Positions 1,995 to 46,395 of a DNA stretch of 64,000 nucleotides are shown in pieces. Every line of letters begins with the position of its first letter. Position 1 is the first letter of the stretch. This DNA comes from an uncultured Candidatus Sumerlaeota bacterium (lineage in GTDB: Bacteria > Sumerlaeota > Sumerlaeia > SLMS01): the NCBI GenBank assembly GCA_964437365.1, contig CAYTGM010000002.1:130212-194211 (forward strand). Reading direction: 5' to 3'. A program made the position numbers and the translations under genes. The notes below the pieces were generated by a model. The model had not been told where the DNA came from, searched no databases, and saw only the letters and a list, made by a program, of their open reading frames with translations.

Positions 1995-2822
1995 ATGAAA
2001 AAATTTCTGATTGGTTGTTCTATCGTCTTATTGCTGGCGATTGCCATCGCCACAGGCATCCTGATCTTTATCGGACTCAAGATCAAGGGGGTTGCGAATA
2101 ATTATGAGATGGCTTTCCAGAACATGGAGCAGCTTGAGACCAAGTATCCGTACACGAAACCGGGCACCAGGAAATTGGATGAAGATCGACTGCTTGCTTA
2201 TTTCGAAATCAGAGAAGGATTCATCACAAATATTCAGGAAGACCCGCTCATTAAAGCGTTCCTCGAAGCAGAAAAGGACCCGAACACGGCTCCTCCGGAA
2301 GTTGGTCTCGGTGACATGTGGAGAATTGGATCTGAAGCGATCCCAAGCTGGGTCGAAGAGTTTAATACTCTATCTGATTCAAGACAGATGCCTCCGTCGG
2401 AATATATATTTCATCTGCGTACCGTTTACCAGACGATCTACGAAGGACAGGAGCGCGGTGATCCGGATATGACTCGTATTTACTCTCAGCTGACAGATAT
2501 GGTAGATAATATGAACCGGGAAATTGCGAAACAGAACAACCCGGATCTTCGACCTGTACAATTGGAGCAATCACTCGAGGATATTGAGAGTATGGATGAA
2601 GATTCGATCGCACACAACATCACGCTCTTGAAAGATCATCTTGATAAGATTGAGGACAGACCAATGCTCGGCGGTATCGAAGTCTTTATATACTTCACTT
2701 ACGAAGCCCAAGTGATGCAGGGTAATGCCCCGCAGTTTGGAGGGCAGGGGAATGTTTCGGAGGCTGAAGCCACTCAGTTTGAAGGCAGCGTATCAGAGGC
2801 AGAGCCAATTCCTGCAAATTGA
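1995..2822 (+). CDS. Hypothetical protein with N-terminal signal-anchor/TM helix
   Basis: 275 aa. One hydrophobic helix (residues 5-28), then an acidic soluble region. No recognisable motif. Confidence 0.4.
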   Translation: MKKFLIGCSIVLLLAIAIATGILIFIGLKIKGVANNYEMAFQNMEQLETKYPYTKPGTRKLDEDRLLAYFEIREGFITNIQEDPLIKAFLEAEKDPNTAPPEVGLGDMWRIGSEAIPSWVEEFNTLSDSRQMPPSEYIFHLRTVYQTIYEGQERGDPDMTRIYSQLTDMVDNMNREIAKQNNPDLRPVQLEQSLEDIESMDEDSIAHNITLLKDHLDKIEDRPMLGGIEVFIYFTYEAQVMQGNAPQFGGQGNVSEAEATQFEGSVSEAEPIPAN

Positions 2823-2854: not shown

Positions 2855-4201
2855 CTAGTGCCCAGTAGATTTTCTGCTGGGCACTTTTCTTTTCTTCGCC
2901 GTCGTTGAAAGAAAGGCATATATTTTCCTGTTAGAGATCCATGGGAATTGCAATTCGCTGGCGCGCTTTCTAAAGTCTTTGATCTGAGATTGAAAGAGAG
3001 ACTCAATCTCGACCAGAAATTCGTAGGCAAGTCGCATTGTTGCAGGCCGGGTGCCATGAGCAAGAATAAGATTTCGCCTGGCACTGAGAACTTTACGAAA
3101 GGTATCGCTCTGACGATAATCCTGTCCCACGGGGTTTCCCAGGATTTCCAAGAGCTCATAGGACTTTCTTAATCCCAGTTTTATTTTCGCGTCTTCCAGT
3201 CTTCGTTCAGCTTCAAAGTAATCACGAGATCGAGGCGGGACTTTTCTGATCTCAAGGTCGTCAGTGCGTATCCCGTATTCTTTGTGCAGTATAGATTGCG
3301 CAAAGACTTCGGCGGCCCGGTGAAGTCGAATGAGCGCGTCGTCAGGTCTCTTTTCAGATAACCTTCGAAGTGCATTGTTATAGACATCGATCAATATCTC
3401 ATCAGGATAATCACCGTCACACTCCATGGCAGCCGCAGCCTTTTCAATCGACTTGAGCTGCTTTGCAGAGACCTTGAAATGCCTGGCTGGCTTGATATTC
3501 TGCAGTTGCTGAGAAATCGACTTATACCTTGTTACGAAATCTCCCAGCTGAAACCGGTCCCAGTCTTCATAGGCTGAAGAAAGGGTCTGCAAGGCTGAAA
3601 CAAGATCAGAACGCTGGGGGAGAAGGCTCTCTTTGTTGATGTCCGAGAGTAATTCCCCCGCCGTACGAAACCGCAGTTCCTGGATCATCGTGATAGACAT
3701 CCGGAGTTTTCTATCCCCCATGACAGACTTGCTTTCGGTAATCACAGGACGGGAAGAAGACTGTCCCGGAGGAGAATAGAGGTATCTCAAAGAGCGTACG
3801 TCATTATTGACTGCTGCAAGGACAGCTCCGGCACTCATGACCTTTGTCCCCCCCGTATAGTGCAGGACCATGTTTTCAGCAAGTACCCCATCTTCGAGAA
3901 GCTGGAGGATCTCTTCATTGGTCGCTTTGTAAGACTCATCAAGAGACTCCGCTGAGTTGAGAAGGCGAACTTTTGTTTCAGGAGGCTTGAACCCCGAAGA
4001 TCTTTGCAATCTTTCAGCGTTTTCTTTCGAGTCTTCGGTAGCAATGATGACCAGTTTGCCAGCCCCAGATTTCTTCAGGTCCCTCGCAAGGGCCGCGATC
4101 ACGTCATTCGATGATGGCCCATAGGTTGTCCCAACGGTCACGATCTGTGCTTTTGTCTTTGAGGCTTTGTTCGTTTTGAGAACCACTCTCGTTAGCTCCA
4201 A
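2855..4201 (-). CDS. CARF-domain + HEPN-domain protein (Csm6/Csx1-like cOA-activated RNase family)
   Basis: 448 aa. N-terminal Rossmann-like region with a T-rich loop (VGTTYGPS) and a downstream HYTGGTKVMS signature typical of CARF domains. C-terminal ARRNLILAHG matches the HEPN R-x4-6-H motif. Confidence 0.5.
   Translation of the reverse strand: MELTRVVLKTNKASKTKAQIVTVGTTYGPSSNDVIAALARDLKKSGAGKLVIIATEDSKENAERLQRSSGFKPPETKVRLLNSAESLDESYKATNEEILQLLEDGVLAENMVLHYTGGTKVMSAGAVLAAVNNDVRSLRYLYSPPGQSSSRPVITESKSVMGDRKLRMSITMIQELRFRTAGELLSDINKESLLPQRSDLVSALQTLSSAYEDWDRFQLGDFVTRYKSISQQLQNIKPARHFKVSAKQLKSIEKAAAAMECDGDYPDEILIDVYNNALRRLSEKRPDDALIRLHRAAEVFAQSILHKEYGIRTDDLEIRKVPPRSRDYFEAERRLEDAKIKLGLRKSYELLEILGNPVGQDYRQSDTFRKVLSARRNLILAHGTRPATMRLAYEFLVEIESLFQSQIKDFRKRASELQFPWISNRKIYAFLSTTAKKRKVPSRKSTGH
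2858..2897 (+). terminator. Rho-independent terminator between convergent genes
   Basis: Hairpin GTGCCCAG-N11-CTGGGCAC followed by TTTTCTTTTCTT. Lies just after the stop of the + gene and inside the last codons of the - strand CARF gene. Confidence 0.5.
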
Positions 4202-4329
4202 TTATTTGAAATTGTCAGAGATGACTAATTGATTCACATGCGTGGAACCAGTGATAATTGATCAACTTGAAGGAAAATATCGAGATCGAATCAGAAAATG
4301 TAGATCTCTGGCAGAGTTAAGGACAAAAG

Positions 4330-5337
4330 ATGTCGAGAGTGATTGATCAAGTGAAGAGTCAGCTCGCTGGAACGAACAGGAAAGTTGTGTTCCCGGAAGC
4401 GACCTTTGATGAACGGACGATCCGGGCATGCGCAAGACTCCTGGAGGAAGGGCTGCTTACACCCGTGATGTTGGGCAGGAGAGAGGATTTCATGACAACT
4501 GCCGAAGTTCTGGGCATCGATATCCGATCCGCACTTTTTCATTATCCGACGGACGACGAAAATCTGGAGGAGATGGTAGACCTTTATCAGAGGCGCCGAG
4601 CGAAGGAAGGTTTAACACGTGATCAGGCAAGGGCAGTGCTGCTCGGGGATTCACTCCTGTTTGGCGCTGGGCTGGTTGCTTTGGGGAAAGTGGATGCCAT
4701 GGTTGCGGGGGCCAGCCATGCGACCGCTGATGTAATAAGATCGGGACTCAAGATGGTCGGCTCTCGCGAAGGGATCCGAACAGTGAGTTCATTTTTCTTA
4801 ATGGAATTGGAGGAGAACTCGGGTTTTGGAATACAGGACCTACTTGTCTTTGCAGATTGTGCCATTGTTCCTGATCCTGATTCTGCTCAGTTATCTGAGA
4901 TCGCTTCGAATGCTTGTATGGATGTGCTGAAAATCTATCCCGACTGGGAGCCCAGGGTGGCTTTTTTAAGCTTTGCAACCGGTGCGAGTGCTGATCACGA
5001 GGCTGTAGATAAGGTGTCAAAGGCCGTTGAAATGTTCAGCAAACTTCATCCTGATGTCCCCGTTGATGGGCCAATGCAACTGGATGCAGCATTGATTCCT
5101 GAGGTTGCTTCGAGGAAGTGCGGGGGGTCTGATGTTGCTGGACGGGCAAATATTCTGATCTTTCCCGATCTGAACTCAGGAAATATCGGCTACAAGTTGG
5201 TTGAGCGACTGGGAGGAGCGTTAGCACTTGGTCCGATGGTGAGTGGTTTGGCGAGGCCAGTTAATGATTTGTCTCGTGGTGCATCCGAGCAGATTATTTA
5301 TGGGATGGGTGTATTATCGGCGGCACTTTCGAAATAA
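4330..5337 (+). CDS. pta: Phosphate acetyl/butyryltransferase (short Pta family)
   Basis: 335 aa. Overall phosphotransacetylase-family similarity, including a C-terminal NxL..GxxxGP-type region. Confidence 0.7.
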   Translation: MSRVIDQVKSQLAGTNRKVVFPEATFDERTIRACARLLEEGLLTPVMLGRREDFMTTAEVLGIDIRSALFHYPTDDENLEEMVDLYQRRRAKEGLTRDQARAVLLGDSLLFGAGLVALGKVDAMVAGASHATADVIRSGLKMVGSREGIRTVSSFFLMELEENSGFGIQDLLVFADCAIVPDPDSAQLSEIASNACMDVLKIYPDWEPRVAFLSFATGASADHEAVDKVSKAVEMFSKLHPDVPVDGPMQLDAALIPEVASRKCGGSDVAGRANILIFPDLNSGNIGYKLVERLGGALALGPMVSGLARPVNDLSRGASEQIIYGMGVLSAALSK

Positions 5338-18732: not shown

Positions 18733-19443
18733 TTATTGATTCCCTTCCTTCATCAGGAAAAGCTTACGTGAGACTTCGATGATCGGAGGGTTCGAGACAG
18801 GGATTTTATCTGAACTTTCAGAAATAACGACCCCGGGCTGGATCTTCAGTTGATTAAAGAAAAGCTGAAGCGATTCGGGAGTTTCACGAGGTATATCAAA
18901 GTCTATATCGATTGCCACAGATTTGCCTCCCTCAATCTCGACTTTCTTTAAAAAATAGGATTCCGTTTCAACTCGCTCGATCACATTCCGTTCACCACGC
19001 GTATAAGCGGGCTTTAATCTCCGAGCAGGAAAATCCCTCGATGAGTTATCCCATCTTAAATTGACAGTTGAAGATCCTTTGGGAGTCTCAACCTGTTCAT
19101 ATTCACCAGCCTGTTGATTAAACCAGACGTATAGACTCTCTTCGGGAAGAGTGAAGAATAGCGAGTCTGTGTTCTCTGAATTATCGACCTCCAGAGTGAC
19201 CCTGTATAAGGCGTGATTCAATGGACCATGAGATACAAGACGTATTGCGGGTGAAGTCTCAAAATCAACTGGCTCAGGCATTGCACTCGTCACAATTGTC
19301 GAGGCTTCTCCCCCTCGGGCGCAGAAGATCATCAGGGCTGCTAGGACAAAGAATGATCTAAAATAACAAAATACTACAGACCGCATAGAACTTAAGGCTC
19401 CATCAATCAATCTGAACGGATTACAGCTTCTCCATGGTTTCAA
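18733..19443 (-). CDS. Hypothetical secreted protein
   Basis: 236 aa ORF with a hydrophobic N-terminus. No recognisable motif. Confidence 0.3.
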   Translation of the reverse strand: MKPWRSCNPFRLIDGALSSMRSVVFCYFRSFFVLAALMIFCARGGEASTIVTSAMPEPVDFETSPAIRLVSHGPLNHALYRVTLEVDNSENTDSLFFTLPEESLYVWFNQQAGEYEQVETPKGSSTVNLRWDNSSRDFPARRLKPAYTRGERNVIERVETESYFLKKVEIEGGKSVAIDIDFDIPRETPESLQLFFNQLKIQPGVVISESSDKIPVSNPPIIEVSRKLFLMKEGNQ

Positions 19444-20219
19444 CTCAATACCTTCCTTCTCTTTTTCTACTGCTTCTTATCTTTTCAGGCTGTTCCTACG
19501 ACAGAAGAGATCTGGTCCGCTATGACCTGATGGTACCCGGTACAGAAAAGGAAGTCCTGGATGTAGGAAAGGTTTTCACGGCAGGGGAGCATAAACTAAA
19601 CACCTATCAACGATATTTCAACGGAAACGACGACAAGTTGACAAGTCGGGTTTTAACGCGCTCACCTCAGCTCGATAATCGCTGGATCGCCCTGGACCAG
19701 GAAGGAGGCTTCATCTCGTTTCTTCTCGACGAAGATTTCCTTCAGATTCCCGCGGCAAAGAATGGTCGTCGTGAAAGCTTTATTCGCTTTGAACCGTACC
19801 TATCCTACTCACCAACAAGGATGACTCTGGGCGATACTCATGAATCAGCAGTAGATTTTGAAGTCTGGAATCAAGAAGAAAGCGGGCGAAGAACAGGAAA
19901 TCTCTCAATCAAGACTGTCTATACCGGAACGAATCCTATTGAACTTTCAGAACTTGGGACTCTGAATTGCCCCCGTATCGACTCAACGATTCTTCTTAAT
20001 CTGAGCTATGGACTTTCTGTCTCTGTAGAACAGAGCCAGTGGTTTCACGGACTCTATGGCGAGGTCCTTCAGGATGTTCAAGGGAACGTTGAGCTTCTTT
20101 CAGTACCACTTTACAAGTTCACGGCTAGACAGCAATTGATCAGTTCTGAACGAATCGATTCTGAAGAGGTGTTGAGAATCCTTCTGGAGAACAGGTTTTC
20201 AGAGACGCTCAATGATTAA
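19434..20219 (+). CDS. Hypothetical lipoprotein
   Basis: 261 aa. Lipobox-like LIFSGCS. No recognisable motif. Confidence 0.3.
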   Translation: MVSTQYLPSLFLLLLIFSGCSYDRRDLVRYDLMVPGTEKEVLDVGKVFTAGEHKLNTYQRYFNGNDDKLTSRVLTRSPQLDNRWIALDQEGGFISFLLDEDFLQIPAAKNGRRESFIRFEPYLSYSPTRMTLGDTHESAVDFEVWNQEESGRRTGNLSIKTVYTGTNPIELSELGTLNCPRIDSTILLNLSYGLSVSVEQSQWFHGLYGEVLQDVQGNVELLSVPLYKFTARQQLISSERIDSEEVLRILLENRFSETLND

Positions 20220-20227
20220 CCCATTCC

Positions 20228-21529
20228 TCAATCCACGAAATCCAGCGGAAGCCTTACACTGTCTTTCACAATAAAGCCTGCTTTCTGAAGTTCCCCCAAA
20301 GCAAGGGGAGTCAGCTTTCCCGTTGTCCAGAATTCCAGTCTCTCAACTCTGCTATCTAATTCCTTTTTCGCTTTTGCATATTCAACCATTTGCTGTGTTA
20401 CTGGTCCCCACTGGATAAAGTCGACGGGAGCTGCAAATAAGAGTGCTCCTGACTGGTTCAAGCCAACAGGGTACTTCTCGTATATAAAGACTTCTTGAAT
20501 ATGTTCAATTCTCTTCTCATACAAAGCCATCATCTCCATCACCTGTTGGAAGAAAAGAGCCTCTTCATAGCTCACAACTTCCGTCGCAGCCTGCAGACAC
20601 GCATGTGAGTTTACGGCTTCACTTATAACAAGAAAGCAGGCTGCTATAATTGAGAAATTTCGCGGTGTCAGGTGCGAGTGTCCGATGAATTCAAGACGCA
20701 GCTCTTCGGAAACCCCTTTCTCCAGAAGTTTTTCGTTCACCTGGTGCCTCAAGGTCGCGGGGGATGCCTGCTTAAGATAAGTGTCCAGCGTCTCCACGAA
20801 TCCAATCCCCTTCACAACCGAGAGAGCGAGCCCTCCCATAGGCATTGTGATCACACTTGGCGTCCAACCGCCCTCCGTTCTGGCATAGGCCAACCGGTTC
20901 AATTCTTTTTGCAAAACCAGGTTGTCCGAATAGACATCCACGTTCAATGCCATAGCCAGATCACGTTTATTTTTTGAAACAGAAAGCAAGCCTTCCATGT
21001 ATGTATCTTCATAGTTTGACCGTTCAGAATTGTAGGATATGATCGTTTGATTAATGCTAAGCTCTGCGCTGTTATACAGAGACTCGGCTGAATGGATCGG
21101 ATCGCTAAAAAGTAAACGGAGGCCTTCTATTGGGCCGTAGAGCGATTCCAGTAATTCGTCTGTGAACTCTTTGTAAACAGATTCTTCTCTCATCACGGCG
21201 ATGGCATTGATCTCTTCTATTCTGCGATTAGCCATCATGATCCCTATCGCTTCAAACTCTCCGAATTCACTATCGATTGTGAATCTCAGGAGAGGCCCCG
21301 TAATTTCCGCTTTTTCCCTCACCTCATGATTTGGCCCTTTCATTTGAAGCTTACTCAGAAAGTCGCTCGACTCAACGGTCCTGATGTTCTCGAAGCCCTC
21401 ATGGGTGAGCTCAGTATGAACCTGAGCCTTGTACAAAAGGGTACCTGTTCCATCTGATTCTCGGAAAGGGTGGGTGCAAGATGTCAGAAGGAATAAAACT
21501 GCCAGAAAATATGAGACTCTATGGATCAA
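20228..21529 (-). CDS. Hypothetical lipoprotein (weak TraB/GumN/Tiki-like hints)
   Basis: 433 aa. Lipobox LLTSC. A C-terminal EFIGHSHL and an N-terminal GTGTLLYK loosely recall the Tiki/TraB GxxH motifs. This is not a secure assignment. Confidence 0.3.
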   Translation of the reverse strand: MIHRVSYFLAVLFLLTSCTHPFRESDGTGTLLYKAQVHTELTHEGFENIRTVESSDFLSKLQMKGPNHEVREKAEITGPLLRFTIDSEFGEFEAIGIMMANRRIEEINAIAVMREESVYKEFTDELLESLYGPIEGLRLLFSDPIHSAESLYNSAELSINQTIISYNSERSNYEDTYMEGLLSVSKNKRDLAMALNVDVYSDNLVLQKELNRLAYARTEGGWTPSVITMPMGGLALSVVKGIGFVETLDTYLKQASPATLRHQVNEKLLEKGVSEELRLEFIGHSHLTPRNFSIIAACFLVISEAVNSHACLQAATEVVSYEEALFFQQVMEMMALYEKRIEHIQEVFIYEKYPVGLNQSGALLFAAPVDFIQWGPVTQQMVEYAKAKKELDSRVERLEFWTTGKLTPLALGELQKAGFIVKDSVRLPLDFVD

Positions 21530-21686: not shown

Positions 21687-24329
21687 ATGCCCGCCCCCGT
21701 AGAAGGTTCCATCGATCACTATTTCTCTCAGGATGCTGCTCGAGTCTGCGCTGAGGAAATCGCCGAAGCGCAAGGGGTCGAAGTCTTCTTTATCTGTCGT
21801 CGGAATGAGGCAGGTCTCATCACTGAAGTTGAGTCTCATGCTTTCGGTACAAAGAATTGTGTTCCCGCCCTGATGCAACTGGCGCAGCCCGGAGAAGTGG
21901 TTGTCCATAATCATCCCTCAGGTCAGCTGATTCCATCAGATGCGGATATTGATATCGCCTCTCACCTTGGCAACATGGGCGTCGGATCGTTTATTATCGA
22001 TAATCAGGCTCATCGTTGTCGCATCATTGTCAAACCTCAAGACCCCAAAAAGAAGAAACGGGTCTCAGAAGAAAGTGTTGTTAAGAGACTATCTCCCAAA
22101 AGCGACCTTTCTAACATTGTCGATGATTTCGAGGACAGACCTCAGCAGCGCTCCATGGCTTCTCAAGTCGTATCCGCCCTCAATGATGACGGAATCAGCG
22201 TTATAGAGGCAGGCACTGGAACAGGAAAATCCTTTGCTTATCTGGTACCTGCAATCATCTTCGCCCTGGAAAATGGCGAGCGCGTCGTGATCAGCACGAA
22301 CACAATCAACCTTCAGGAGCAGCTCCTTCACAAAGATATACCGGCGCTCCGTAAGGCCATTGGCCGAGACTTCAGTGTCGAGATCGTGAAAGGGCGAAGC
22401 AATTATGTCTGCAAGCGGAAGGCTCAGTTTGCCGAGTCTGAAAACTCACTGATCCTCGATGATTTCCAGAAAGAACTCAAGGATGCCTTGGCGTGGGCCG
22501 GCTCTTCATCTACTGGTGATCTCCAGGAGCTCGCAGTCCCACCCCGTCGCGAAGTCTGGGAACGTCTTCAGAGTGAGAGTGATAATACACTGCGTGTTCG
22601 TTGTCCTTTCTATGAAGAATGTTTCTTCTATAATTCACGCCGACGTGCAGCGCGGGCAAACCTTCTCATCGTCAATCATTCACTCCTGCTAAGCGATCTG
22701 GCCATACGCCGCGCAACGGGGAACTATACAACTGCTGCCGTCCTTCCCCCCTATCAGTATGTGGTTATCGACGAGGCGCATAACCTCGAAGAATCCGCCG
22801 CTCGTAATTTAGCCCAGCAGGTCTCACGCTTCGGTGTTCGCCAGCTTTTTGGAAGACTCTACAAGCGTGATAAGAAAGAGGGCAAAGGCGTCTATGCTTC
22901 TCTGACTGTCGCCTGCGAAGAAGCGGTCTCCAAAGGATTCATCAACAGCGGTCATCCGATGATACAAAAACTGGTGCAGGAATTGATCCCTCGCGTTTCC
23001 GATATCCGTGACTCTCTTGACTTTCTTCTTCAGGATTTCATCAACCAGTTTTTGCGCCTTACAGACCATGCTTTTTCAAACGATTCGATGGAGAGCCAGA
23101 AGATTCGTCTGACCTGGAAGCTCAAGCAGCACCCAATCTGGGATGAAGAGTGTGAAGGAATTCTGCAAGGTTTCTCCAGAGAGATCAGTGCCTTTGTTGA
23201 TGAAAACCAGAAAGTCTTTGATCTTTCCCAGGATATCGATGACGAAGCGATGCGCATCCTTACAAATCCTCTGCTGGAGTGGAAATCTCTCATAGGGCGT
23301 CTAGACAGTTTGCGCCAGACAGTGCTTCGCTTCCTTTCCGAGGATAATGAGAACTGCCGTTGGATTGAAATCGTTCCGAAGCTGAAGGAAAAGAGAGAAG
23401 CTGTCGTTAAGCTTTGTCTATCACCAGTCGATGTCCGTGAGATTTTGCGAGAGTCTCTTCACGACAAAATGAAAGCAGAGGTTCTGACCAGCGCAACGCT
23501 TACTGTGGATCAGAAATTTGACTTCTTTAAGGAAAGAACCGGCCTCCCTTCAGTTTCTGTCAGCTCCGAAGCTCCTGTTGAATATGATGAAGAAGGCTTG
23601 CCTGTACATAGGCTGGAGCCTGTGGAAGCTCGCCCTGTATCAATGAATACTCTCGGAGCAGTCTTCGATTATTCTGAGCAGGTTTTCTTCGGCGTTCCAA
23701 AAGACCTTCCAGATCCCCGCGAGAAAGAGTTCGAGCAGGAGCTCGCTGAACTCATCAACCGATCTGTTGTGATTACCGGAGGAAGAGCGTTCGTCCTCTT
23801 TACCAGTTATGGACAATTGAACCGCGTCTATAACCTTTGTGCACCAGTTATTCAGCGTATTGGCGTACGCTGTCTGAAGCAGGGGAGCGAAAACCGCGAC
23901 GCGCTACTCAGAAGGTTTCGTGAAGATGAAACAAGTGTTCTCTTTGCGACGTCAAGTTTCTGGGAAGGTGTTGATGTGAAAGGGCGAGCGTTGGAGTTGC
24001 TGATCATTGCAAAGCTTCCCTTTTCAGTGCCTACAGAACCGGTTCAGGAAGCGCAGTTTGAGGCTCTCAAGGCGAAGGGGAGAGATCCCTTTCAGAACCT
24101 GGTAATTCCCCGAGCTATCATTCGATTCAAGCAGGGGTTTGGTCGCCTTATACGGTCACGTACGGACAGGGGAGCGGTTATTATTGCTGATAATCGTGTT
24201 GTTAAGGCCAATTATGGTCGACGGTTTATTCGATCGTTACCTGATATACAGGTGAGAGCAGCGCAGAGCGAGGAGCTGCTTAAACAAATGGAAGAGTTCT
24301 TTGAAAAGTCACCGACAGGGAAGTATTAA
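21687..24329 (+). CDS. dinG: RadC-like JAB/JAMM domain fused to DinG-family Fe-S DNA helicase
   Basis: 880 aa. Residues ~60-110 (VVVHNHPSGQLIPSDADIDIASHLGNMGVGSFIIDNQAH) match the RadC/JAMM H-x-H-x7-S-x2-D motif. Then Walker A EAGTGTGKSF, a Cys cluster (C-x..RCPFYEEC) and DEAH box VIDEAHNLEE of XPD/DinG helicases. An in-frame stop lies 18 nt upstream of the ATG, so the JAB region is the true N-terminus. Confidence 0.75.
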   Translation: MPAPVEGSIDHYFSQDAARVCAEEIAEAQGVEVFFICRRNEAGLITEVESHAFGTKNCVPALMQLAQPGEVVVHNHPSGQLIPSDADIDIASHLGNMGVGSFIIDNQAHRCRIIVKPQDPKKKKRVSEESVVKRLSPKSDLSNIVDDFEDRPQQRSMASQVVSALNDDGISVIEAGTGTGKSFAYLVPAIIFALENGERVVISTNTINLQEQLLHKDIPALRKAIGRDFSVEIVKGRSNYVCKRKAQFAESENSLILDDFQKELKDALAWAGSSSTGDLQELAVPPRREVWERLQSESDNTLRVRCPFYEECFFYNSRRRAARANLLIVNHSLLLSDLAIRRATGNYTTAAVLPPYQYVVIDEAHNLEESAARNLAQQVSRFGVRQLFGRLYKRDKKEGKGVYASLTVACEEAVSKGFINSGHPMIQKLVQELIPRVSDIRDSLDFLLQDFINQFLRLTDHAFSNDSMESQKIRLTWKLKQHPIWDEECEGILQGFSREISAFVDENQKVFDLSQDIDDEAMRILTNPLLEWKSLIGRLDSLRQTVLRFLSEDNENCRWIEIVPKLKEKREAVVKLCLSPVDVREILRESLHDKMKAEVLTSATLTVDQKFDFFKERTGLPSVSVSSEAPVEYDEEGLPVHRLEPVEARPVSMNTLGAVFDYSEQVFFGVPKDLPDPREKEFEQELAELINRSVVITGGRAFVLFTSYGQLNRVYNLCAPVIQRIGVRCLKQGSENRDALLRRFREDETSVLFATSSFWEGVDVKGRALELLIIAKLPFSVPTEPVQEAQFEALKAKGRDPFQNLVIPRAIIRFKQGFGRLIRSRTDRGAVIIADNRVVKANYGRRFIRSLPDIQVRAAQSEELLKQMEEFFEKSPTGKY

Positions 24330-24800
24330 GAGAACGCTACATATTCTGTTTCCTCTTCAGAGACATAGCCCTCGGAAAAGTCGATACCAGCGTCCTTTAA
24401 TAGTTCTATGAATTCATTGTAAGAATTATGGCGTTTGTGATGTTCCTTTTGATTTCTGATATATTCAACGACAGAGGTTTTGTCTCTGCGCGAGATTGTG
24501 AATGCACCATATTCTTTCTGCCAGCCTGTAAATAAAGGATAATCAGGATGATCCTTTAACCAGCGACTGGGAAGTGACCTTGAGATCTCTGACGAGATCT
24601 GACAATGCTATACGAGGATTTAAGGAGATGAGTAGGTGGACATGATCTTCCATCGTATTTATTCGATACAGATAGCATTTCTTGTTTTTTAGAAAACCCC
24701 ATATGTATCTAAAGAGTGTCTCCTGGATTTCAAGGGGCAGGGTGTTTTCACGATTCTTGGTTGAGAAAACGATATGGTAATAGATCTGTCTATAAGACAT
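24326..24800 (-). pseudogene. tnpA: IS200/IS605-family Y1 (HUH) transposase / RAYT-like gene, interrupted by a +1/-1 frameshift
   Basis: N-terminal part (from MSYRQIYYHIVFSTKNR through the HUH motif DHVHLLI) is in one frame and ends at 24543. The C-terminal part (WLKDHPDYPLFTGWQKEYGAF...VEYIRNQKEHH, with the catalytic Tyr) continues in the adjacent frame to a stop at 24326-24328. The two halves overlap near 24545-24560. The stop overlaps the dinG stop. Confidence 0.6.
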
Positions 24801-24921
24801 CGTGGTTGTTCTCTCGATTGGGTATGATCTGTTTGTCCGCAGGATGCGTGAGCGTGATTCGGGCGCAATATAATTGAAATCTGTTGGCCTTCGTCGAAGG
24901 CCTTTGTGTTGTGGCATTTGT

Positions 24922-24953
24922 CCCCAAGGCCCCAAGGCCCCAAAGCCCCAAGG
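24922..24953. repeat. Octamer microsatellite (CCCCAAGG)x4
   Basis: ccccaagg ccccaagg ccccaaag ccccaagg read directly, immediately adjacent to the left inverted repeat. Confidence 0.9.
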
Positions 24954-24980
24954 CTCGCTTCGCTCACCATGGGGCTATTC
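24954..24980. repeat. Left 27-bp inverted repeat (pairs with 25583..25609)
   Basis: ctcgcttcgctcaccatggggctattc. Its reverse complement matches gaatagccccgtggtgagcgcagcgaac at 25583-25609 (about 24 of 27 positions). Confidence 0.8.
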
Positions 24981-25039
24981 AAATTTACCCACCTTCGGCG
25001 GGATATATTGAATGAACCTACCCCGGACGATGTCCGGGG

Positions 25040-25487
25040 CTAAGATTTTTCCATCCCTGGCGGGATGTTCGGTTAGGTTTTCTGATGATTCTCTTCGATC
25101 GTTGAACGTTGTCGTTGTCAGCGCAGCGGTTGACGTTGTCGGCCGTTGCTCACGCCTCATACTAAGATTTTTCCATCCCTGCCGGGATGTTTGCTTAGGT
25201 ATTCTGATGATTCTCTTCGATCGTTGAACGTTGTCAGCGCAGCGGTTGACGTTGTCTGCAGTTGCTCACGTCTCATACTAAGATTTTACCACCCCTGCTG
25301 GGATGTTTGCTTAGGTATTCTGATGATTCTCTTCGATCGTTGAACGTTGTCGTTGTCAGCGCAGCGGTTGTCGTTGTGGGCCGTTGCTCACGCCTCATAC
25401 TAAGATTTTTCCATCCCTGCTGGGATGTTCGGTTAGGTATTCTGATGATTCTCTTTGATCGTTGAACGTTGTCGGCGGTTGTCAGCC
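25040..25487. repeat. Tandem array of four 116-122-bp direct repeats
   Basis: Units start with ctaagatttt at 25040, 25162, 25278 and 25400. They are more than 90% identical and differ by a 6-bp indel (gtcgtt). Each contains a conserved 6-bp-stem hairpin catccc-NNNN-gggatg. They are bounded by hairpins ccccggacgatgtccgggg (25021-25039) and cctcccgtagggagg (25561-25575). Confidence 0.9.
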
Positions 25488-28140: not shown

Positions 28141-28323
28141 TTACTTAACTTCGCGGTGAACCGTATGCTTCTTCAGGAAGGGGTTATACTTCTTAAGCTC
28201 AATGCGCTGAGTTGTATTCTTCTTATTCTTGATGCTGTAATAGCGTGACATACCCTTAACGCCTGATTCTTTCTGCTCAGTGCATTCGAGGATAACCTGA
28301 ACCCGGTTCTGTTTCTTTGCCAT
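28141..28323 (-). CDS. rpmG: 50S ribosomal protein L33
   Basis: 60 aa, starting at [16 protein letters not shown]...[21 protein letters not shown]. The annotated 141-aa ORF extends in-frame a further 81 codons upstream without a stop. That extension is judged non-coding leader. Confidence 0.75.
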
Positions 28324-29005
28324 GTTTCTATTCTCCTGAGCCGTCTGAACGGCGGTAATACCTGTAATTGAGGCGATCAGGGCACAGAGAAACCCCATCG
28401 CAAGGCCGCAAGAGGTTCTACAGCACCCCTCTCCTATGCAAGCCCTTTCTGCACGAAGAGTGGAAAAAAGGTGATCGCCGTTGGGCTCACATTCTTTGGT
28501 TCCAAGGTCGGTGACCCGCTGATCTGATCCTACAGGGAATTGGTGGTAAACATGAATATTCTTCATGCGTCATACTTCTCATCGCCGTCTGGCAACGCCG
28601 GTGTTCGTGATCCAGCCACTCGAAGATCACTTAAGAGTTGCGAGCCGTCAGGGCGGTAGAGCGCCAAACGGGGAAAGAAACGCGATGAGTTTTCCCAGGC
28701 CCCTACAGAGTTGATCTCGCGGCGATCCTGGACCTATCCAGGTCCGATGCCCATCGGACCTGCATCGCTCCGACATCGCTCCGGCATCGTCCCTGGAGGG
28801 GAAATGCCCAAAAATGACTAGGAGGGAGAACCGAAAGCGCCGCAGGCTCTGGGGTGCGGGGTTCTTGGTCACGCTTTGAAATTCGAAGTCTCGCCGCGAG
28901 CACCGAGTCTCGCTTCGAATCAGGTCGCAGAATGATCCCGATTCGAATCCAAAGGGGAGTACCTTGCGCGGCGGCATCCCGCCGCGCGAGGCAAAATATA
29001 TTACA

Positions 29006-41209: not shown

Positions 41210-42454
41210 ATGAAAGTGTCGAAGAAAGAGACACAGAAAGGTTCAACAATGAGAAAAAACTTATATAGAAGCACGGTCGCAACACTTATCGCAATAGGAC
41301 TCCCAGCGGCGGGGTTCTCACAGTACTACGGAGTCATTGACAACTATTCAGGTATATCAGAGCGTTATCCTGCTCTTGTAAACTTGACAAGTAAGAATGG
41401 TGTCACGATCAACACCAACTTCTTCTTTGGTGGGGGAGCTGGTGGTGGTGGCGGTGAAAATCCAGATACGGGACCACTTGGTGTCGGAGACAAATCCTTC
41501 ACAATGGGCGGTGCCATTCAAGGTGGATTCATTGGATTGTTTTCAAACTTTCAGGATGGTTCCGCAACGATTGATTTCACTGCTGTGAGTAAAGGCCGTT
41601 CAAACACCGGTGTTACCGTTGACTTCAAAGACAATCAGAATGATGGCGATGTCTATGCACTTCGCCTCGAGTCGGGAGGGTTCGATCGGTCTCGTACTTA
41701 TACGATCACTCCCACAGATACAAACTGGAATACCTACGCCTTTAACTTTACTGATGGCGTTCTCAATGAGTCCGGTGGAGCTTTCGACCCAACTGCACTC
41801 ACGAATATTGTTGTTCTTCCCATTACGGAAGTTGGAGGAAACTTTGATTGTCGTGTAGACAACCTGGGTTTCATCAGTAACCTCGTACCAACTGATGGGT
41901 TTATTGAAGACTTCGAAGGATATACACCTGGAAATCTCGGGGCAGGTATCGGGCCTCTGGCAAACCTCAACCAGTTTGATGGTGTCATAGAAACTTTTGC
42001 TTTCGGGTCTGGTGCTGTAACAGATTCAAATGTTGTTGATGTTGGTGGTGACACCGCAGTAGATTGGACATTTTCAACAACAGAAGGTGGAATTGTATTC
42101 GACCTTGGTGATCCAGGGGCCCAGGTAGACATCAGTGCCTTCGATGCGCTTGAGATTTCTCTTGCTGTTGGCGAAGCTGGTGACGCCGTTGCCGTCCTTG
42201 TTGAAGACATTAATGCGGTGGGTTTCGGTGATCGCTGTAGTAATTCTCCTGCCGTGACAACCACCCTTCAAACCTTTCAGATTCCCCTGGCCAGTTTTGC
42301 CTGTGGTCCTCAAGGTTTGACGAATGATGCCGTCCACCGAGTTACAGTTGTGCCAACAGCAGACCAGTCGAACGGCATTACCATTACCGTGGGACATGTC
42401 GCTTTCGTAGATACGAGCACTTCTGTTCAAGACTGGCAGATGCTCGACGACTAA
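41210..42454 (+). CDS. Secreted protein with Gly-rich linker and two putative beta-sandwich (CBM-like) domains
   Basis: 414 aa. Signal peptide, GGGAGGGGGENPD linker and repeated DFxD/NxN beta-rich segments. Function is not assignable. Confidence 0.35.
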   Translation: MKVSKKETQKGSTMRKNLYRSTVATLIAIGLPAAGFSQYYGVIDNYSGISERYPALVNLTSKNGVTINTNFFFGGGAGGGGGENPDTGPLGVGDKSFTMGGAIQGGFIGLFSNFQDGSATIDFTAVSKGRSNTGVTVDFKDNQNDGDVYALRLESGGFDRSRTYTITPTDTNWNTYAFNFTDGVLNESGGAFDPTALTNIVVLPITEVGGNFDCRVDNLGFISNLVPTDGFIEDFEGYTPGNLGAGIGPLANLNQFDGVIETFAFGSGAVTDSNVVDVGGDTAVDWTFSTTEGGIVFDLGDPGAQVDISAFDALEISLAVGEAGDAVAVLVEDINAVGFGDRCSNSPAVTTTLQTFQIPLASFACGPQGLTNDAVHRVTVVPTADQSNGITITVGHVAFVDTSTSVQDWQMLDD

Positions 42455-44599: not shown

Positions 44600-45604
44600 T
44601 TGAGGAGACTCGATTTACTGATGAAGAAAACAAATGCTCATAAAAAAAGTACTGCAGCACTGAAACTCGTGGATGAAGTCGAAAAAGTCATCGTCGGGAA
44701 ACGTCGGATCATCATGAGAGTTGTAGCCGCCTTGATGGCTAACGGGCACGTGCTATTGGAAGATGTCCCCGGCACTGGGAAGACGACTCTCGCAAAAACG
44801 CTCTCCCAATGTCTTGATGCGAGGTTCAAGAGAATCCAGTTTACCCCTGACCTGCTCCCCACTGACTTGACGGGTGTATCTATATATAATCAGAAATCCC
44901 AGGAATTCGAGTTCAGAGAAGGGCCACTCTTTGGCAATATTCTTCTTGCCGATGAGCTCAATCGTGCCACTCCACGCACTCAGAGCGCACTACTCGAAGC
45001 AATGGAGGAAAGGACCGTCACAATCGATGGAGCCTCACATGATTTGCCTGACCCTTTTTTCGTGATCGCGACTCAAAATCCCATCGAGCAGCACGGCGTA
45101 TATCATCTACCCGAGGCACAGGTCGATCGGTTTCTTGTGCGCTTGAAACTCGGCTATACAACAATTACCGAGGAGCGTGAAATTGTTGAGGGGCAACGAA
45201 CTGCTCACCCGCTTCGAGAAATTAAGTCGATCATATCCCTGGAAGATCTAAAACAGGAAATGGCAAAACTTCGTGAGATTGTAGTAGAGACAAACGTATC
45301 TGATTATATTGTTCGTGTGGTGGCGGCGACCAGAGAACACCGTGATATTGAGTTAGGGGCGTCACCGCGCGCCAGTCTTGCTCTTTATCGCCTATGCCAG
45401 GCAACAGCCTGGATTGTCGGGCATGAATTTGTCACGCCTGACATGGTTAAGAAACTGGCTCCGTCTGTCCTTTGCCACCGAATCTTGCTCAAACCACAGG
45501 CAAGGTTGGGTGGGGTACAATCAGAGGACATCGTAGAGGACGTGCTGTCTTCAGTCGATGTTCCAATCGTCAGGATGAAAGATGGTACGACAGATCATTT
45601 GTAG
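44600..45604 (+). CDS. MoxR-family AAA+ ATPase
   Basis: Walker A LEDVPGTGKTTLAK, Walker B ILLADELNRA, and the MoxR-specific C-terminal helical region. Confidence 0.8.
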   Translation: MRRLDLLMKKTNAHKKSTAALKLVDEVEKVIVGKRRIIMRVVAALMANGHVLLEDVPGTGKTTLAKTLSQCLDARFKRIQFTPDLLPTDLTGVSIYNQKSQEFEFREGPLFGNILLADELNRATPRTQSALLEAMEERTVTIDGASHDLPDPFFVIATQNPIEQHGVYHLPEAQVDRFLVRLKLGYTTITEEREIVEGQRTAHPLREIKSIISLEDLKQEMAKLREIVVETNVSDYIVRVVAATREHRDIELGASPRASLALYRLCQATAWIVGHEFVTPDMVKKLAPSVLCHRILLKPQARLGGVQSEDIVEDVLSSVDVPIVRMKDGTTDHL

Positions 45605-46391
45605 GTCAGAAACCGTTATCAAGACGGTACTTATTGTTGCCGCTGTTTGCATTTGCGGCTGTGCAAAGTTCGATCGCTCCCGAGCTGAGCTTGAGACTTC
45701 TGCTGAACACGGAGCAGAGTTCAGAGATCAGGCCACTCCTGTTCGAGCATCCACTCCAGCCGACCCAGCTATACAGAAGCTCCTGAGTCCTTACAAAGCG
45801 GAAGTGAGTAAACTGAATGAGCCGATTGGAATCGCGGCGGAGAACTTCTCAGTACCCGCTAGAGATGGCGGGTTTGGTTCAGTCATCGCTGATGTAATCC
45901 TCTGGAAAGCACGAAAAGACCTTGATTCAAGAGTGGACGCAGCCTTCACAAATTCTGGAGGTATTCGGGCACCCCTCGATAAGGGCAGTATAACTAGAGC
46001 CCAGATCATGAAGGTCCTTCCTTTTGAAAACAGGATTGTTATCCTCGAGCTGGACAAAGATGAGCTGATGCAACTGGGTCAGGAACTGGCGAACACAAAA
46101 GGTGGAAACCCTATCTCTGGAATGGAGATTTCCGCTGCCCCTGACTGGAAACTGATGTCTGTATTGATTCGCAAAAATCGGCTCAAGGATCAGGAGGGTC
46201 CCTTCTACATTGCGACAAATAGTTTTCTCGCTGCAGGCGGAGCCGGATCAGAACTTCTAAAGAATGCCAGAAAAGTAGAATATGATGTTCTGCTGAGCGA
46301 TGCATTTATTGAGTATATACAGAATATTCAGGAAAGGGGAGATTCGCTTGTCATGCCGGAAAGAGCACAGCGATATTTCGTAGAGGAATAG
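45582..46391 (+). CDS. 5'-nucleotidase C-terminal (substrate-binding) domain lipoprotein
   Basis: 269 aa. Lipobox ICGCAK. TNSGGIRAPL motif of the 5_nucleotid_C domain. There is no metallophosphatase domain in this ORF. Confidence 0.65.
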   Translation: MVRQIICRSETVIKTVLIVAAVCICGCAKFDRSRAELETSAEHGAEFRDQATPVRASTPADPAIQKLLSPYKAEVSKLNEPIGIAAENFSVPARDGGFGSVIADVILWKARKDLDSRVDAAFTNSGGIRAPLDKGSITRAQIMKVLPFENRIVILELDKDELMQLGQELANTKGGNPISGMEISAAPDWKLMSVLIRKNRLKDQEGPFYIATNSFLAAGGAGSELLKNARKVEYDVLLSDAFIEYIQNIQERGDSLVMPERAQRYFVEE

Positions 46392-46395
46392 TATC

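What the first reader, a model, noticed from the sequence alone, without database searches (positions are those of the whole stretch)
2855..4201. Orphan CARF-HEPN (Csm6/Csx1-like) effector with no cas genes or CRISPR array nearby
The 448-aa protein carries a CARF-type signature (T-rich loop VGTTYGPS, then HYTGGTKVMS) and a C-terminal HEPN R-x4-6-H motif (RRNLILAHG). This architecture is that of cyclic-oligoadenylate-activated RNases of type III CRISPR systems. Here it sits alone between trpF/pta-type housekeeping genes, convergent with a single-TM protein of unknown function. It has its own promoter region (4202-4329) and a bidirectional terminator. No Cas10 or other cyclase, cas genes or CRISPR repeats occur in the 64 kb. 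It could be a trans-acting ancillary nuclease for a distant type III locus, or a stand-alone cOA/second-messenger sensor wired to another signal source.
Basis: partly seen in the sequence, partly recalled or inferred. Interest (0 to 1): 0.6.

Follow-up and report, generated by a model that had tools for sequence, protein, structure and literature searches.

The report
Csm6-type RNase gene without CRISPR neighbours
This gene encodes a genuine Csm6-type signal-activated RNase of the kind that normally sits inside type III CRISPR loci, but here, and in every related Sumerlaeota locus examined, it lies among housekeeping genes with no CRISPR genes nearby, so what switches it on is an open question.

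Summary
ORF 2855-4201(-) encodes a Csm6-family CARF-6H-HEPN protein; the real start is probably GTG 4186, giving 443 aa. It passes the curated TIGR02710 cutoff (122 vs 83.9 bits) and hits the Pfam Csm6 HEPN domain (1e-25). An AF2 model (pLDDT 83) matches full-length Thermus thermophilus Csm6 best (Foldseek E 7e-11).

By motif position, every residue TtCsm6 needs to bind or cleave cA4 and to cut RNA has a counterpart, and all are conserved among homologs. The 64 kb window holds no cas gene, defence cyclase or CRISPR array.

The gene belongs to a Sumerlaeota-type clade. After de-duplication, 0 of 20 loci in this clade have cas genes or arrays in their flanks, against 65 of 66 loci of the nearest outside relatives, which sit in type III-A loci (Fisher p about 1e-18). 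Six species-level genomes keep the same pilQONM / trpF neighbourhood, and dN/dS is 0.11-0.12.

Most likely it is a cA4-gated, self-limiting RNase. The signal source is unresolved: a distant Cas10 (about 50%) or a CRISPR-independent input (about 35%). The terminator and promoter details are only partly right. It is a new, CRISPR-uncoupled variant of a known family, of moderate interest.

The parts
2855..4186 (-). Coding sequence of the Csm6-family CARF-6H-HEPN protein (443 aa from GTG 4186; the mechanical ORF starts at TTG 4201 and gives 448 aa; residue numbers in this report use the 448-aa numbering)
   Evidence: ORF list. 100% identical to public protein P0001 of 443 aa. TIGR02710 122.1 bits against cutoff 83.9. 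PADLOC CARF1--CARF_HEPN 2e-59.
4196..4199 (-). GGAG Shine-Dalgarno-like motif 9 nt upstream of GTG 4186
   Evidence: Read directly from the sequence. That it functions as a ribosome-binding site is inferred.
3734..4156 (-). CARF (ligand-sensing Rossmann-like) domain, residues about 16-156
   Evidence: AF2 strand/helix alternation E18-23 to E151-156. Pfam CARF_Card1 1e-3, below its gathering score. Clade profile hits the Crn1/Sso2081 CARF at E 1e-3. PADLOC CARF models.
4124..4132 (-). CARF motif I, G24-T25-T26, assigned by motif position to TtCsm6 G58-T59-S60
   Evidence: G24 invariant; T25 and T26 mostly conserved. Role of the TtCsm6 residues in cA4 binding and cleavage from PMC10897365.
3842..3859 (-). 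CARF motif II, Y115-T116-G117-G118-T119-K120, assigned by motif position to TtCsm6 T133/G135/K137 (K137A abolishes cA4 binding)
   Evidence: Invariant in 28 clade members and in 20 CRISPR-linked relatives. TtCsm6 data.
3425..3730 (-). Central helical (6H) domain, residues about 158-259
   Evidence: Pfam Csm6_6H 4e-4, 20.9 bits, below its gathering score of 27.6. All-helical in the model. Included in the full-length structural match to TtCsm6.
2954..3403 (-). HEPN RNase domain, residues about 267-416
   Evidence: PF09670 Csm6 HEPN domain, 90.7 bits against cutoff 27, residues 269-392.
3056..3079 (-). HEPN catalytic motif R375-R376-N-L-I-L-A-H382 (R-x6-H, the same spacing as TtCsm6 R415...H422)
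   Evidence: R375 and H382 invariant in both clades. Position 376 is R in this clade but N in the CRISPR-linked clade and in TtCsm6.
3167..3247 (-). Segment R319-R345 (RKVPPRSRDYFEAERRLEDAKIKLGLR) with clade-specific invariant residues; low model confidence
   Evidence: R319, P323, R324, E330, R333, D337, G343 and R345 are invariant in the Sumerlaeota clade and not conserved in the sister clade. pLDDT is below 50 at 315-319 and 328-343. Same length and similar net charge as in the sister clade, so it is not an insertion.
2858..2938 (-). Clade-specific basic C-terminal extension after the invariant QFPW (27 aa here, 8 K/R)
   Evidence: Median 38 aa and net charge +4 in the Sumerlaeota clade against 2 aa in the CRISPR-linked clade. 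Whole-protein median pI 9.4 against 7.6.
2857..2885 (+). 13-bp-stem hairpin followed by TTTCTTTTCT on the + strand. Probable intrinsic terminator of the convergent gene 1995-2822; it overlaps the last codons of the CARF-HEPN ORF
   Evidence: Terminator scan and sequence. On the minus strand the tail is AGAATAAATTAG, which is not U-rich.
4187..4329 (.). Divergent intergenic region between the CARF-HEPN gene and pta (4330-5337). Presumed to hold the promoter
   Evidence: Gap seen. No sigma-70-like match on the minus strand. The promoter role is inference only.
1995..2822 (+). Convergent 275-aa protein with an N-terminal hydrophobic segment and no Pfam family (called TM275 here). A conserved neighbour only in the syntenic sub-lineage; not shown to be functionally linked
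   Evidence: No Pfam hit. Homologs lie immediately downstream and convergent in L001, L006, L008, L010 and L016, with two copies in L001 and L008. Absent from the other clade loci.

Best explanation
The gene encodes a working Csm6-family effector with three domains: an N-terminal CARF sensor, a helical 6H linker and a C-terminal HEPN RNase.

By analogy with Thermus thermophilus Csm6, it should act as a homodimer. A cyclic oligoadenylate, most probably cA4, binds between the two CARF domains. This rearranges the R-x6-H site at the HEPN dimer interface and switches on non-specific single-strand RNA cleavage. The CARF site then cleaves the ligand and switches the enzyme off.

What is shown: family membership, fold, conservation of every key residue, purifying selection, and membership of a vertically inherited Sumerlaeota-type clade that is never next to cas genes or CRISPR arrays.

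What is inferred: dimerisation, the ligand, RNase and ring-nuclease activity, and the source of the signal.

My preferred source is a Cas10 cyclase in a type III locus elsewhere in the genome. On that reading the gene is a trans-acting ancillary nuclease parked in the core genome. The clade-specific basic C-terminal tail may add RNA or ribosome affinity; this is speculative.
For: Family and fold:
- TIGR02710 122.1 bits against cutoff 83.9.
- PF09670 1e-25.
- PADLOC CARF_HEPN and Csx1 models, 2e-59 to 5e-51.
- AF2 pLDDT 83.
- Best PDB matches are TtCsm6 8jbc/8jh1/5fsh at E 7e-11 to 1e-9, then the cA6-dependent Csm6 proteins.

Residues: PMC10897365 shows TtCsm6 needs G58/T59/S60, T81 and T133/G135/K137 for cA4 binding, Y161/N164 for cA4 cleavage, and R415/N416/H422 for RNase activity. 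The counterparts here, assigned by motif position, are G24/T25/T26, T55, T116/G118/K120, Y140 and R375...H382. G24, T55, T116, G118, K120, Y140, R375 and H382 are invariant in the 28-member clade alignment; T25 and T26 are mostly conserved (T25 is G and T55 is S in the sister clade). All of these positions are kept in the CRISPR-linked sister clade apart from such conservative changes. This argues that the ligand has not changed.

Functional gene: dN/dS is 0.108 and 0.117 for the two closest ortholog pairs.

Descent from true csm6: the nearest outside relatives sit in the csm6 position of cas10-csm2-csm3-csm4-csm5-[homolog]-cas1-array loci. Their Cas10 proteins keep the HD and GGDD motifs.

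Trans use has precedent: Hoikkala et al. [quoted passage not shown]
Against: - No Cas10 or other cyclase was found in the 64 kb window or in about 370 kb of related Sumerlaeota loci.
- 0 of 20 de-duplicated clade loci are cas- or CRISPR-adjacent, against 65 of 66 in the sister clade. That is an odd pattern if the gene still travels with type III systems.
- It sits in a conserved housekeeping neighbourhood in six species-level genomes and diverges at about the rate of trpF and pilQ. CRISPR loci, by contrast, are usually patchy.
- The residue after the catalytic Arg is R rather than N (N416A inactivates TtCsm6). A polar N, H or D is often found one position later.
- The catalytic loop and the 315-343 segment are modelled with low confidence.
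- No biochemical test was possible, and I could not determine whether these genomes encode Cas10 anywhere.
Confidence: 0.5

Rival explanations
1. The clade is a CRISPR-independent, domesticated Csm6. It no longer depends on Cas10. Its CARF domain senses a signal from another source, and it acts as a stand-alone stress, abortive-infection or RNA-turnover RNase in Sumerlaeota. Candidate signals are a different nucleotide cyclase, RNA ends carrying 2',3'-cyclic phosphate as for the CARF of RtcR, or oligo(A)-tailed RNA as reported for SisCsx1.
For: - 0 of 20 clade loci against 65 of 66 sister-clade loci are next to cas genes or arrays, p about 1e-18.
- Six species-level genomes share the pilQONM-(pta)-gene-TM275-trpF synteny, and CARF-HEPN identity (49-55%) is close to that of trpF (46-48%) and pilQ (53-58%).
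- dN/dS is 0.11-0.12.
- Immediate neighbours in the other lineages are housekeeping genes.
- The clade has its own traits: a basic C-terminal extension, pI 9.4 against 7.6, an N-to-R change next to the catalytic Arg, and its own set of invariant residues at 319-345.
- Makarova et al. [quoted passage not shown]
- The title and abstract of PMC5737841 report Csx1 regulation by RNAs with tetra-adenylate tails.
Against: - The cA4-binding and cA4-cleaving residues are those of TtCsm6 and the CRISPR-linked clade, with only conservative changes. This is most simply explained by the same ligand, and to my knowledge Cas10 is the only established source of cA4.
- No alternative cyclase was found near any locus, and no partner gene recurs across the lineages.
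- Absence of Cas10 from these genomes was not shown.
Confidence: 0.35
2. The protein's main job is to remove a signal rather than to kill. On this reading its CARF ring-nuclease activity clears cA4, for example made by a type III system elsewhere, while the HEPN RNase is secondary or attenuated.
For: The CARF motifs resemble those of stand-alone Crn1 ring nucleases: the clade profile hits Sso2081 at E 1e-3. PMC10897365 states that the TtCsm6 CARF is Crn1-like. Position 376 is R where TtCsm6 needs N416 for RNase activity.
Against: R375 and H382, together with the HEPN helix-1 residues N275, N276, R279 and R280, are invariant across the clade. That is hard to explain if RNase activity were dispensable. 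Stand-alone ring nucleases do not carry a HEPN domain.
Confidence: 0.07
3. The gene is a decaying remnant of a lost type III locus, or a mis-called ORF, with no current function.
For: No cas context. The mechanical ORF begins with a TTG start codon.
Against: - The reading frame is intact in at least 20 lineages.
- dN/dS is about 0.11.
- All catalytic and ligand-binding residues are invariant or conservatively kept.
- Synteny is conserved.
- There is a plausible GTG start with a GGAG upstream.
Confidence: 0.02

Closest known systems
Thermus thermophilus Csm6 (TTHB152; PDB 5FSH, 8JBC, 8JH1), a cA4-activated, self-limiting CARF-6H-HEPN RNase
   Same: - Best structural match over the full length: Foldseek E 7e-11 to 1e-9, TM 0.55-0.59.
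- Same three-domain order.
- Same CARF motif I (G-T-S/T) and motif II (T-x-G-x-K).
- Same R-x6-H spacing in the HEPN domain.
   Different: - Only 15-17% sequence identity, and no hit in a PDB sequence search with the single sequence.
- R376 in place of N416.
- A 27-aa basic C-terminal extension.
- Encoded among housekeeping genes with no cas gene in 64 kb. From my own knowledge, not tested here, TTHB152 lies in the CRISPR-cas region of plasmid pTT27.
csm6-position homologs in type III-A loci of Thermodesulfobacteriota (Syntrophales, Smithella, Desulfobacterales; loci L020-L053 and L073-L145)
   Same: - Nearest relatives outside the clade: 22-27% identity, and an HMM built from them hits the window protein at 2.4e-35.
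- All CARF and HEPN functional residues are shared.
   Different: - 65 of 66 lie beside cas genes and/or a CRISPR array, in the order cas10-csm2-csm3-csm4-csm5-homolog-cas1-array.
- They end at ...FDFPKLP with no basic tail.
- They have R-N rather than R-R at the catalytic motif.
- Median pI 7.6 against 9.4.
Crn1 stand-alone ring nucleases (Sso2081)
   Same: The CARF domain profile aligns with Sso2081 at E 1e-3, including TLGTSPG/TVGTTP and ITGGRKSMS/YTAGTKVMS. PMC10897365 describes the TtCsm6 CARF as Crn1-like.
   Different: Crn1 is a CARF-only protein of about 180 aa. This protein also carries the 6H and HEPN domains.
CARF proteins that act outside CRISPR, such as RtcR (CARF-AAA+-HTH regulator of the RNA repair operon)
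   Same: A precedent for a CARF sensor working without Cas10. This rests on my own knowledge and was not tested here. PADLOC carries RtcR--CARF_AAA_HTH models.
   Different: No AAA+ or HTH output domain here. The output is a HEPN RNase, and the CARF motifs are of the cA4/ring-nuclease type.

Membership tests
Csm6 / TIGR02710 family (CARF-6H-HEPN ancillary RNase) | Scores above the curated whole-protein cutoff of the family model | tested here: met
   NCBIfam TIGR02710 (equivalog): 122.1 bits against cutoff 83.9, residues 49-389 on model positions 14-367 of 384.
Csm6 / TIGR02710 family (CARF-6H-HEPN ancillary RNase) | N-terminal CARF domain with motif I (G-T-S/T after strand 1) and motif II (T-x-G-x-K after strand 4) | tested here: met
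   G24-T25-T26 and T116-x-G118-x-K120 are present. G24, T116, G118 and K120 are invariant in the clade and in the sister clade. Motif definitions from PMC10897365. CARF profile hit to Sso2081 at E 1e-3. Pfam CARF_Card1 is below its gathering score (19.3 against 24.6 bits).
Csm6 / TIGR02710 family (CARF-6H-HEPN ancillary RNase) | Helical 6H (HTH-like) linker domain between CARF and HEPN | tested here: inconclusive
   Pfam Csm6_6H scores 20.9 bits, below its gathering score of 27.6. The region is all-helical in the model and falls within the full-length match to TtCsm6. No domain-level superposition was available.
Csm6 / TIGR02710 family (CARF-6H-HEPN ancillary RNase) | C-terminal HEPN domain with a conserved R-x4-6-H motif | tested here: met
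   PF09670 scores 90.7 bits against cutoff 27. R375-x6-H382 is invariant in 28 clade members and 20 sister-clade members.
Csm6 / TIGR02710 family (CARF-6H-HEPN ancillary RNase) | Encoded in or next to a type III CRISPR-cas locus (Cas10 plus Csm/Cmr subunits) | tested here: not met
   No cas gene or array in the 64 kb window. 0 of 20 clade loci are adjacent, against 65 of 66 in the sister clade. Whether Cas10 exists elsewhere in the genome could not be tested.
Csm6 / TIGR02710 family (CARF-6H-HEPN ancillary RNase) | Homodimer with composite ligand and RNase sites; cOA-activated RNase and ring-nuclease activity | not testable with these tools
   Only a monomer prediction was possible, and no biochemistry. 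Inferred from residue conservation.
Csx1 in the sense of Hoikkala et al. 2024 (dimeric cA4-activated CARF-HEPN; Csm6 reserved for cA6) | Activation specifically by cA4 rather than cA6 | not testable with these tools
   PADLOC Csx1 models hit at 5e-51. The best structural match is the cA4-dependent TtCsm6, ahead of the cA6-dependent StCsm6' and EiCsm6. Definitions from PMC11229360. Ligand specificity is inferred only.
Crn1 stand-alone ring nuclease | CARF-only protein without an effector domain | tested here: not met
   A HEPN domain is present. Length is 443-448 aa against about 180 aa for Sso2081.

The most novel reading that the evidence does not exclude
A whole bacterial lineage (Sumerlaeota) has taken a Csm6 RNase out of CRISPR immunity and fixed it in the core genome as a CRISPR-independent, ligand-gated RNase. 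If so, either cA4-like cyclic oligoadenylates are made by something other than Cas10 in these bacteria, or a Csm6-type CARF pocket with unchanged key residues reads a different cellular signal, such as 2',3'-cyclic-phosphate or oligo(A) RNA ends. The clade-specific basic C-terminal tail might direct the enzyme to particular RNAs or to ribosomes.
Probability: 0.33. Interest if true: 0.8.

Novelty: new variant of a known kind. Interest (0 to 1): 0.5.

Why it matters
Csm6/Csx1 RNases are the textbook output of type III CRISPR signalling, and their activators are known only as Cas10 products.

Here a deep, vertically inherited clade keeps every cA4-binding, cA4-cleaving and RNA-cutting residue under purifying selection, yet is never found beside cas genes. 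The signal source can be settled simply, by asking whether these genomes encode Cas10.

- If they do, this is a clean natural example of an effector permanently kept in the core genome and shared in trans. That bears on the unexplained effector-less type III loci.
- If they do not, it points to a non-CRISPR source or a new ligand for a Csm6-type CARF sensor. That would widen cyclic-oligoadenylate signalling beyond CRISPR.

The enzyme could also be of practical interest as a divergent, basic-tailed Csm6 for RNA-detection assays.

Tried and rejected
1. Exact look-ups of the window protein gave no contig and no name or accession. The source organism is therefore inferred only from the nearest homologs and from synteny with Sumerlaeota MAGs. 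The source genome was not among the GTDB species representatives; the best match there was 55% identical.

2. I tried to learn whether Sumerlaeota encode Cas10 by searching with a profile of 14 Cas10s from the control loci. It found 2,628 hits, but only the best 120 are listed and every named one is from Thermodesulfobacteriota-type lineages. The result is uninformative and is not evidence of absence.

3. The literature was no help on this point. Ten papers mention both Sumerlaeota and CRISPR, but the two I read only list Sumerlaeota as predicted virus hosts. The 2020 CARF classification paper (PMC7498327) is not held. The Synechocystis CARF paper had nothing on orphan genes.

4. My first idea of an arginine-rich insertion near the HEPN site is rejected. 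Segment 312-347 has the same length (36 against 37 aa) and similar net charge (+3 against +2) in both clades. Only the identity of the conserved residues differs.

5. My first greedy gene calls picked wrong-strand shadow ORFs in the high-GC loci; the L014 and L017 rows are artefacts. I re-called genes using GC3 and repeated the PADLOC screen. The first PADLOC screen of the flanks showed only 25 of 44 families, so on its own it was incomplete.

6. The array candidate in L018 is a 60-nt head-to-tail tandem repeat, not a CRISPR.

7. I looked for a hidden conserved partner gene among the unannotated ~250-aa upstream ORFs. They are homologous only between close relatives (L001 and L008), so there is no universal partner.

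8. No relatives were found on viral contigs.

9. A PDB sequence search with the single protein found nothing meaningful.
Full report
**1. What is there**

The window has an ORF at 2855..4201 on the minus strand, 448 aa from a TTG. Five codons in, a GTG at 4186 is preceded at 9 nt by GGAG. A 100%-identical public protein, P0001, is 443 aa long. The real gene is therefore most likely 2855..4186.

All three quoted peptide motifs are in place:
- GTT at 4124-4132
- YTGGTK at 3842-3859
- RRNLILAH at 3056-3079

**2. Family and fold**

Sequence profiles:
- The protein passes the curated cutoff of NCBIfam TIGR02710, 'CRISPR-associated CARF protein' (122.1 bits against 83.9).
- Pfam finds the Csm6 HEPN domain at residues 269-392 (90.7 bits against cutoff 27).
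- Pfam also gives sub-threshold hits to Csm6_6H (174-246) and CARF_Card1 (45-148).
- PADLOC's CARF1--CARF_HEPN and Csx1 models hit at 2e-59 and 5e-51.
- A single-sequence search of PDB sequences finds nothing.
- A profile of the clade reaches the CARF domain of the ring nuclease Sso2081 at E 1e-3, aligning both CARF motifs.

Structure: an AlphaFold2 model built on 28 homologs has mean pLDDT 83. Its best PDB matches are full-length Thermus thermophilus Csm6 (8jbc, 8jh1, 5fsh; E 7e-11 to 1e-9; TM 0.55-0.59). The cA6-dependent Csm6 proteins come next.

None of them is met.

**3. Functional residues**

The TtCsm6 study PMC10897365 gives a list against which to test:
- Motif I (G58/T59/S60), T81 and motif II (T133/G135/K137) bind cA4.
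- Y161 and N164 cleave cA4.
- R415, N416 and H422 form the RNase site.

In the clade alignment the counterparts are G24/T25/T26, T55, T116/G118/K120, Y140 and R375...H382. I assigned these by motif position, not by a residue-level structural alignment.
- G24, T55, T116, G118, K120, Y140, R375 and H382 are invariant.
- T25 and T26 are mostly conserved.
- The R-to-H spacing matches TtCsm6.

The same positions are kept in the CRISPR-linked sister clade, with conservative changes such as S for T55 and G for T25.

One difference stands out. The residue after the catalytic Arg is R in this clade (96%), but N in the sister clade and in TtCsm6. A polar N, H or D is common one position further on.

**4. 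Orphan status in the window**

- Tandem Repeats Finder and a k-mer array scan find no CRISPR.
- Rfam and tRNA scans are empty.
- PADLOC on the 52 other ORFs of at least 110 aa hits only a DinG-type helicase.
- HMMs built from the nine cas gene clusters of the control loci find nothing at E<=1 in a six-frame search.
- No GGDEF or GGDD motif occurs in the 42 window ORFs checked.
- Pfam on 30 ORFs shows housekeeping genes.

The flanking genes are trpF, a Pfam-less protein with an N-terminal hydrophobic segment (TM275), pta and pilM.

Caveat: about 20 ORFs were identified only by eye, and generic cyclase families were not exhaustively profiled.

**5. The wider picture: a CRISPR-uncoupled clade**

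Homolog search gives about 35 proteins at 42-55% identity. Those that carry an organism name are from Sumerlaeota or Sumerlaeia. Below that, identity drops to 36% and then to 29% or less.

Scans of GTDB species genomes and of metagenomes fetched 140 loci. They fall into two groups:
- Sumerlaeota-type proteins at 32-55% identity.
- A large group at 20-29% identity, mostly from Syntrophales, Smithella and Desulfobacterales.

In the second group, PADLOC finds Cas10 and Cas1 in 8 of 8 sampled loci, plus Csm3/4/5 or Cmr4/6 hits. A CRISPR array lies 2-3 kb downstream in most loci. The gene order is cas10-csm2-csm3-csm4-csm5-[homolog]-cas1-array; the names are inferred from gene lengths and the pooled PADLOC hits. 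The Cas10 proteins keep the HD and GGDD motifs. This group serves both as a positive control for my screens and as evidence that the family's usual home is a type III-A locus.

Counts after de-duplicating at 95% identity and requiring at least 3 kb of flank:

| Clade | Loci with a cas gene or array | Loci without |
|---|---|---|
| Sumerlaeota-type | 0 | 20 |
| CRISPR-linked | 65 | 1 |

Fisher p is about 1e-18.

The cas HMMs were trained on the control group. I therefore also ran PADLOC on 78 re-called ORFs within +/-7 kb of nine non-syntenic Sumerlaeota loci. It found no Cas10, Csm/Cmr, Cas1/2/6 or CD-NTase. There were only scattered hits: a sigma-54 activator, MzaA, RT_UG29, Vsr, mad2 and a weak Cas3-HD hit at 6e-10.

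**6. Vertical inheritance and selection**

Six species-level genomes (L001/L009, L006, L007, L008, L010, L016) share the window's arrangement: pilQ-O-N-M, then pta or another gene, then the CARF-HEPN gene, a convergent TM275, trpF and a metallophosphoesterase.

Protein identities to the window across these genomes are 49-55% for CARF-HEPN, 46-48% for trpF, 53-58% for pilQ and 70-78% for pilM. The gene therefore diverges like its core neighbours.

Other lineages have different housekeeping neighbours:
- a PLP-dependent (Orn/DAP/Arg-type) decarboxylase
- UDP-galactopyranose mutase
- a class-I glutamine amidotransferase
- PMT_2 glycosyltransferases
- ribosomal protein genes
- a two-component system

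No partner gene recurs across the lineages.

dN/dS is 0.108 (L010/L016) and 0.117 (L008/L009). No relatives occur on viral contigs.

**7. Clade-specific traits**

- After an invariant QFPW, the crown Sumerlaeota proteins carry a C-terminal extension (median 38 aa, net charge +4). The sister clade ends two residues after the equivalent motif.
- Median pI is 9.4 against 7.6.
- The deep branches L017-L019 lack the long basic tail. They share the invariant residues of segment 319-345 (IPPRDR..FEALRS..DG..KIGLRKAFELL).
- That segment is not an insertion. It is modelled with low confidence.

**8. Mechanism**

*Shown:* family, fold, residue conservation, selection and context.

*Inferred by analogy with TtCsm6:* a homodimer binds cA4 between its CARF domains. 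The R-x6-H site at the HEPN interface is remodelled. Single-stranded RNA is cut non-specifically, and CARF-mediated cleavage of cA4 ends the response.

*Not resolved:* the signal source.
- I put about 50% on a Cas10 encoded elsewhere. The ligand pocket is unchanged, and there is published support for trans signalling (PMC11229360).
- I put about 35% on a CRISPR-independent input. The uncoupling from cas loci is absolute, the gene has a core-genome character, and the clade has its own derived traits.
- The remaining probability goes to a mainly ring-nuclease role (about 7%) or to loss of function (about 2%). The last is contradicted by the conservation data.

**9. Comparison and novelty**

The protein meets the sequence and fold criteria for the Csm6/TIGR02710 family. 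Public sources already name several of its homologs as TIGR02710 family proteins. It fails the contextual criterion of cas association.

CARF homologs outside CRISPR loci are acknowledged in general (PMC12669027). In the library I searched I found no description of a lineage-wide, syntenic, CRISPR-uncoupled Csm6 clade with an intact cA4 site and a basic tail.

I therefore rate it a new variant of a known kind, with interest 0.5. It is ordinary if Cas10 turns up elsewhere in these genomes, and notable if it does not.

**10.

- The hairpin at 2857-2885 lies inside the 3' end of the ORF. It has a U-tract only for the + strand, so it is probably the terminator of the convergent gene rather than a bidirectional one.
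- No sigma-70-like promoter was detected on the minus strand in 4202-4329.
- The start codon is probably GTG 4186.

Noticed in passing
window 24543-25477: An IS200-like Y1 transposase ORF (24543-24935, minus strand, Pfam Y1_Tnp 1.2e-19) lies about 100 nt from a 122-nt tandem repeat (25040-25477; 3.6 copies; 89% match) and a CCCCAAGG x4 run (24922-24954). This could be a RAYT/REP-like pairing.
   Followed up: partly
window 21687-24329 (+): An 880-aa protein fuses an N-terminal RadC-like JAB domain (residues 32-97, 3.6e-6) to a DinG-type helicase (Helicase_C_2 1e-44, DEAD_2). A DinG-type helicase is the only PADLOC hit among the window ORFs (typeIV_DinG, 1e-125), and this is the only such protein found, but PADLOC detects no other type IV (csf) or cas model in the window.
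   Followed up: partly
window 1995-2822 (+); L001 11401-13068; L008 3345-4554: The convergent 275-aa protein with an N-terminal hydrophobic segment and no Pfam family belongs to a family found immediately downstream of the CARF-HEPN gene in all six syntenic genomes. It is tandemly duplicated in L001 and L008. It is absent from the other clade loci.
   Followed up: partly
window 45582-47325 (+): Two adjacent ORFs carry the two halves of a 5'-nucleotidase in swapped order: the 5_nucleotid_C domain first (45582-46391), then Metallophos (46396-47325). A second Metallophos protein (60-1196) is part of the conserved synteny near the CARF-HEPN gene.
   Followed up: no
window 28141-28566 (-): A 141-aa ORF matches ribosomal protein L33 only at its C-terminal 52 residues (5.7e-17). 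The mechanical ORF is probably over-extended upstream of the real rpmG start.
   Followed up: no
L015 8899-10310; L002 11417-11926 and L012 11395-11889: In L015 the CARF-HEPN gene is followed on the same strand by a TPR protein and a class-I glutamine amidotransferase (trpG/pabA-like); in the window trpF is nearby. L002 and L012 share a Cupin_5 gene directly downstream (66% identity). Each sub-lineage thus has its own local synteny.
   Followed up: partly
Flanks of Sumerlaeota loci L002-L019 (exact ORFs not identified): Pooled PADLOC scans hit single ORFs matching RT_UG29/RTasDnaG-like (1e-50), MzaA (2e-64), Vsr, mad2 (two ORFs) and a weak Cas3-HD model (6e-10). The pooled scan does not say which locus holds which hit, so a defence-island context for one non-syntenic locus cannot be excluded.
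   Followed up: no
L018 19547-19846: A 60-nt head-to-tail tandem repeat (4 copies) triggered my CRISPR k-mer scan. It has no spacers and is not a CRISPR array.
   Followed up: yes
window 18733-21529 and 41210-42454: Four ORFs of 236-433 aa (18733-19443, 19434-20219, 20228-21529, 41210-42454) have no Pfam family at E<=1e-3.
   Followed up: no
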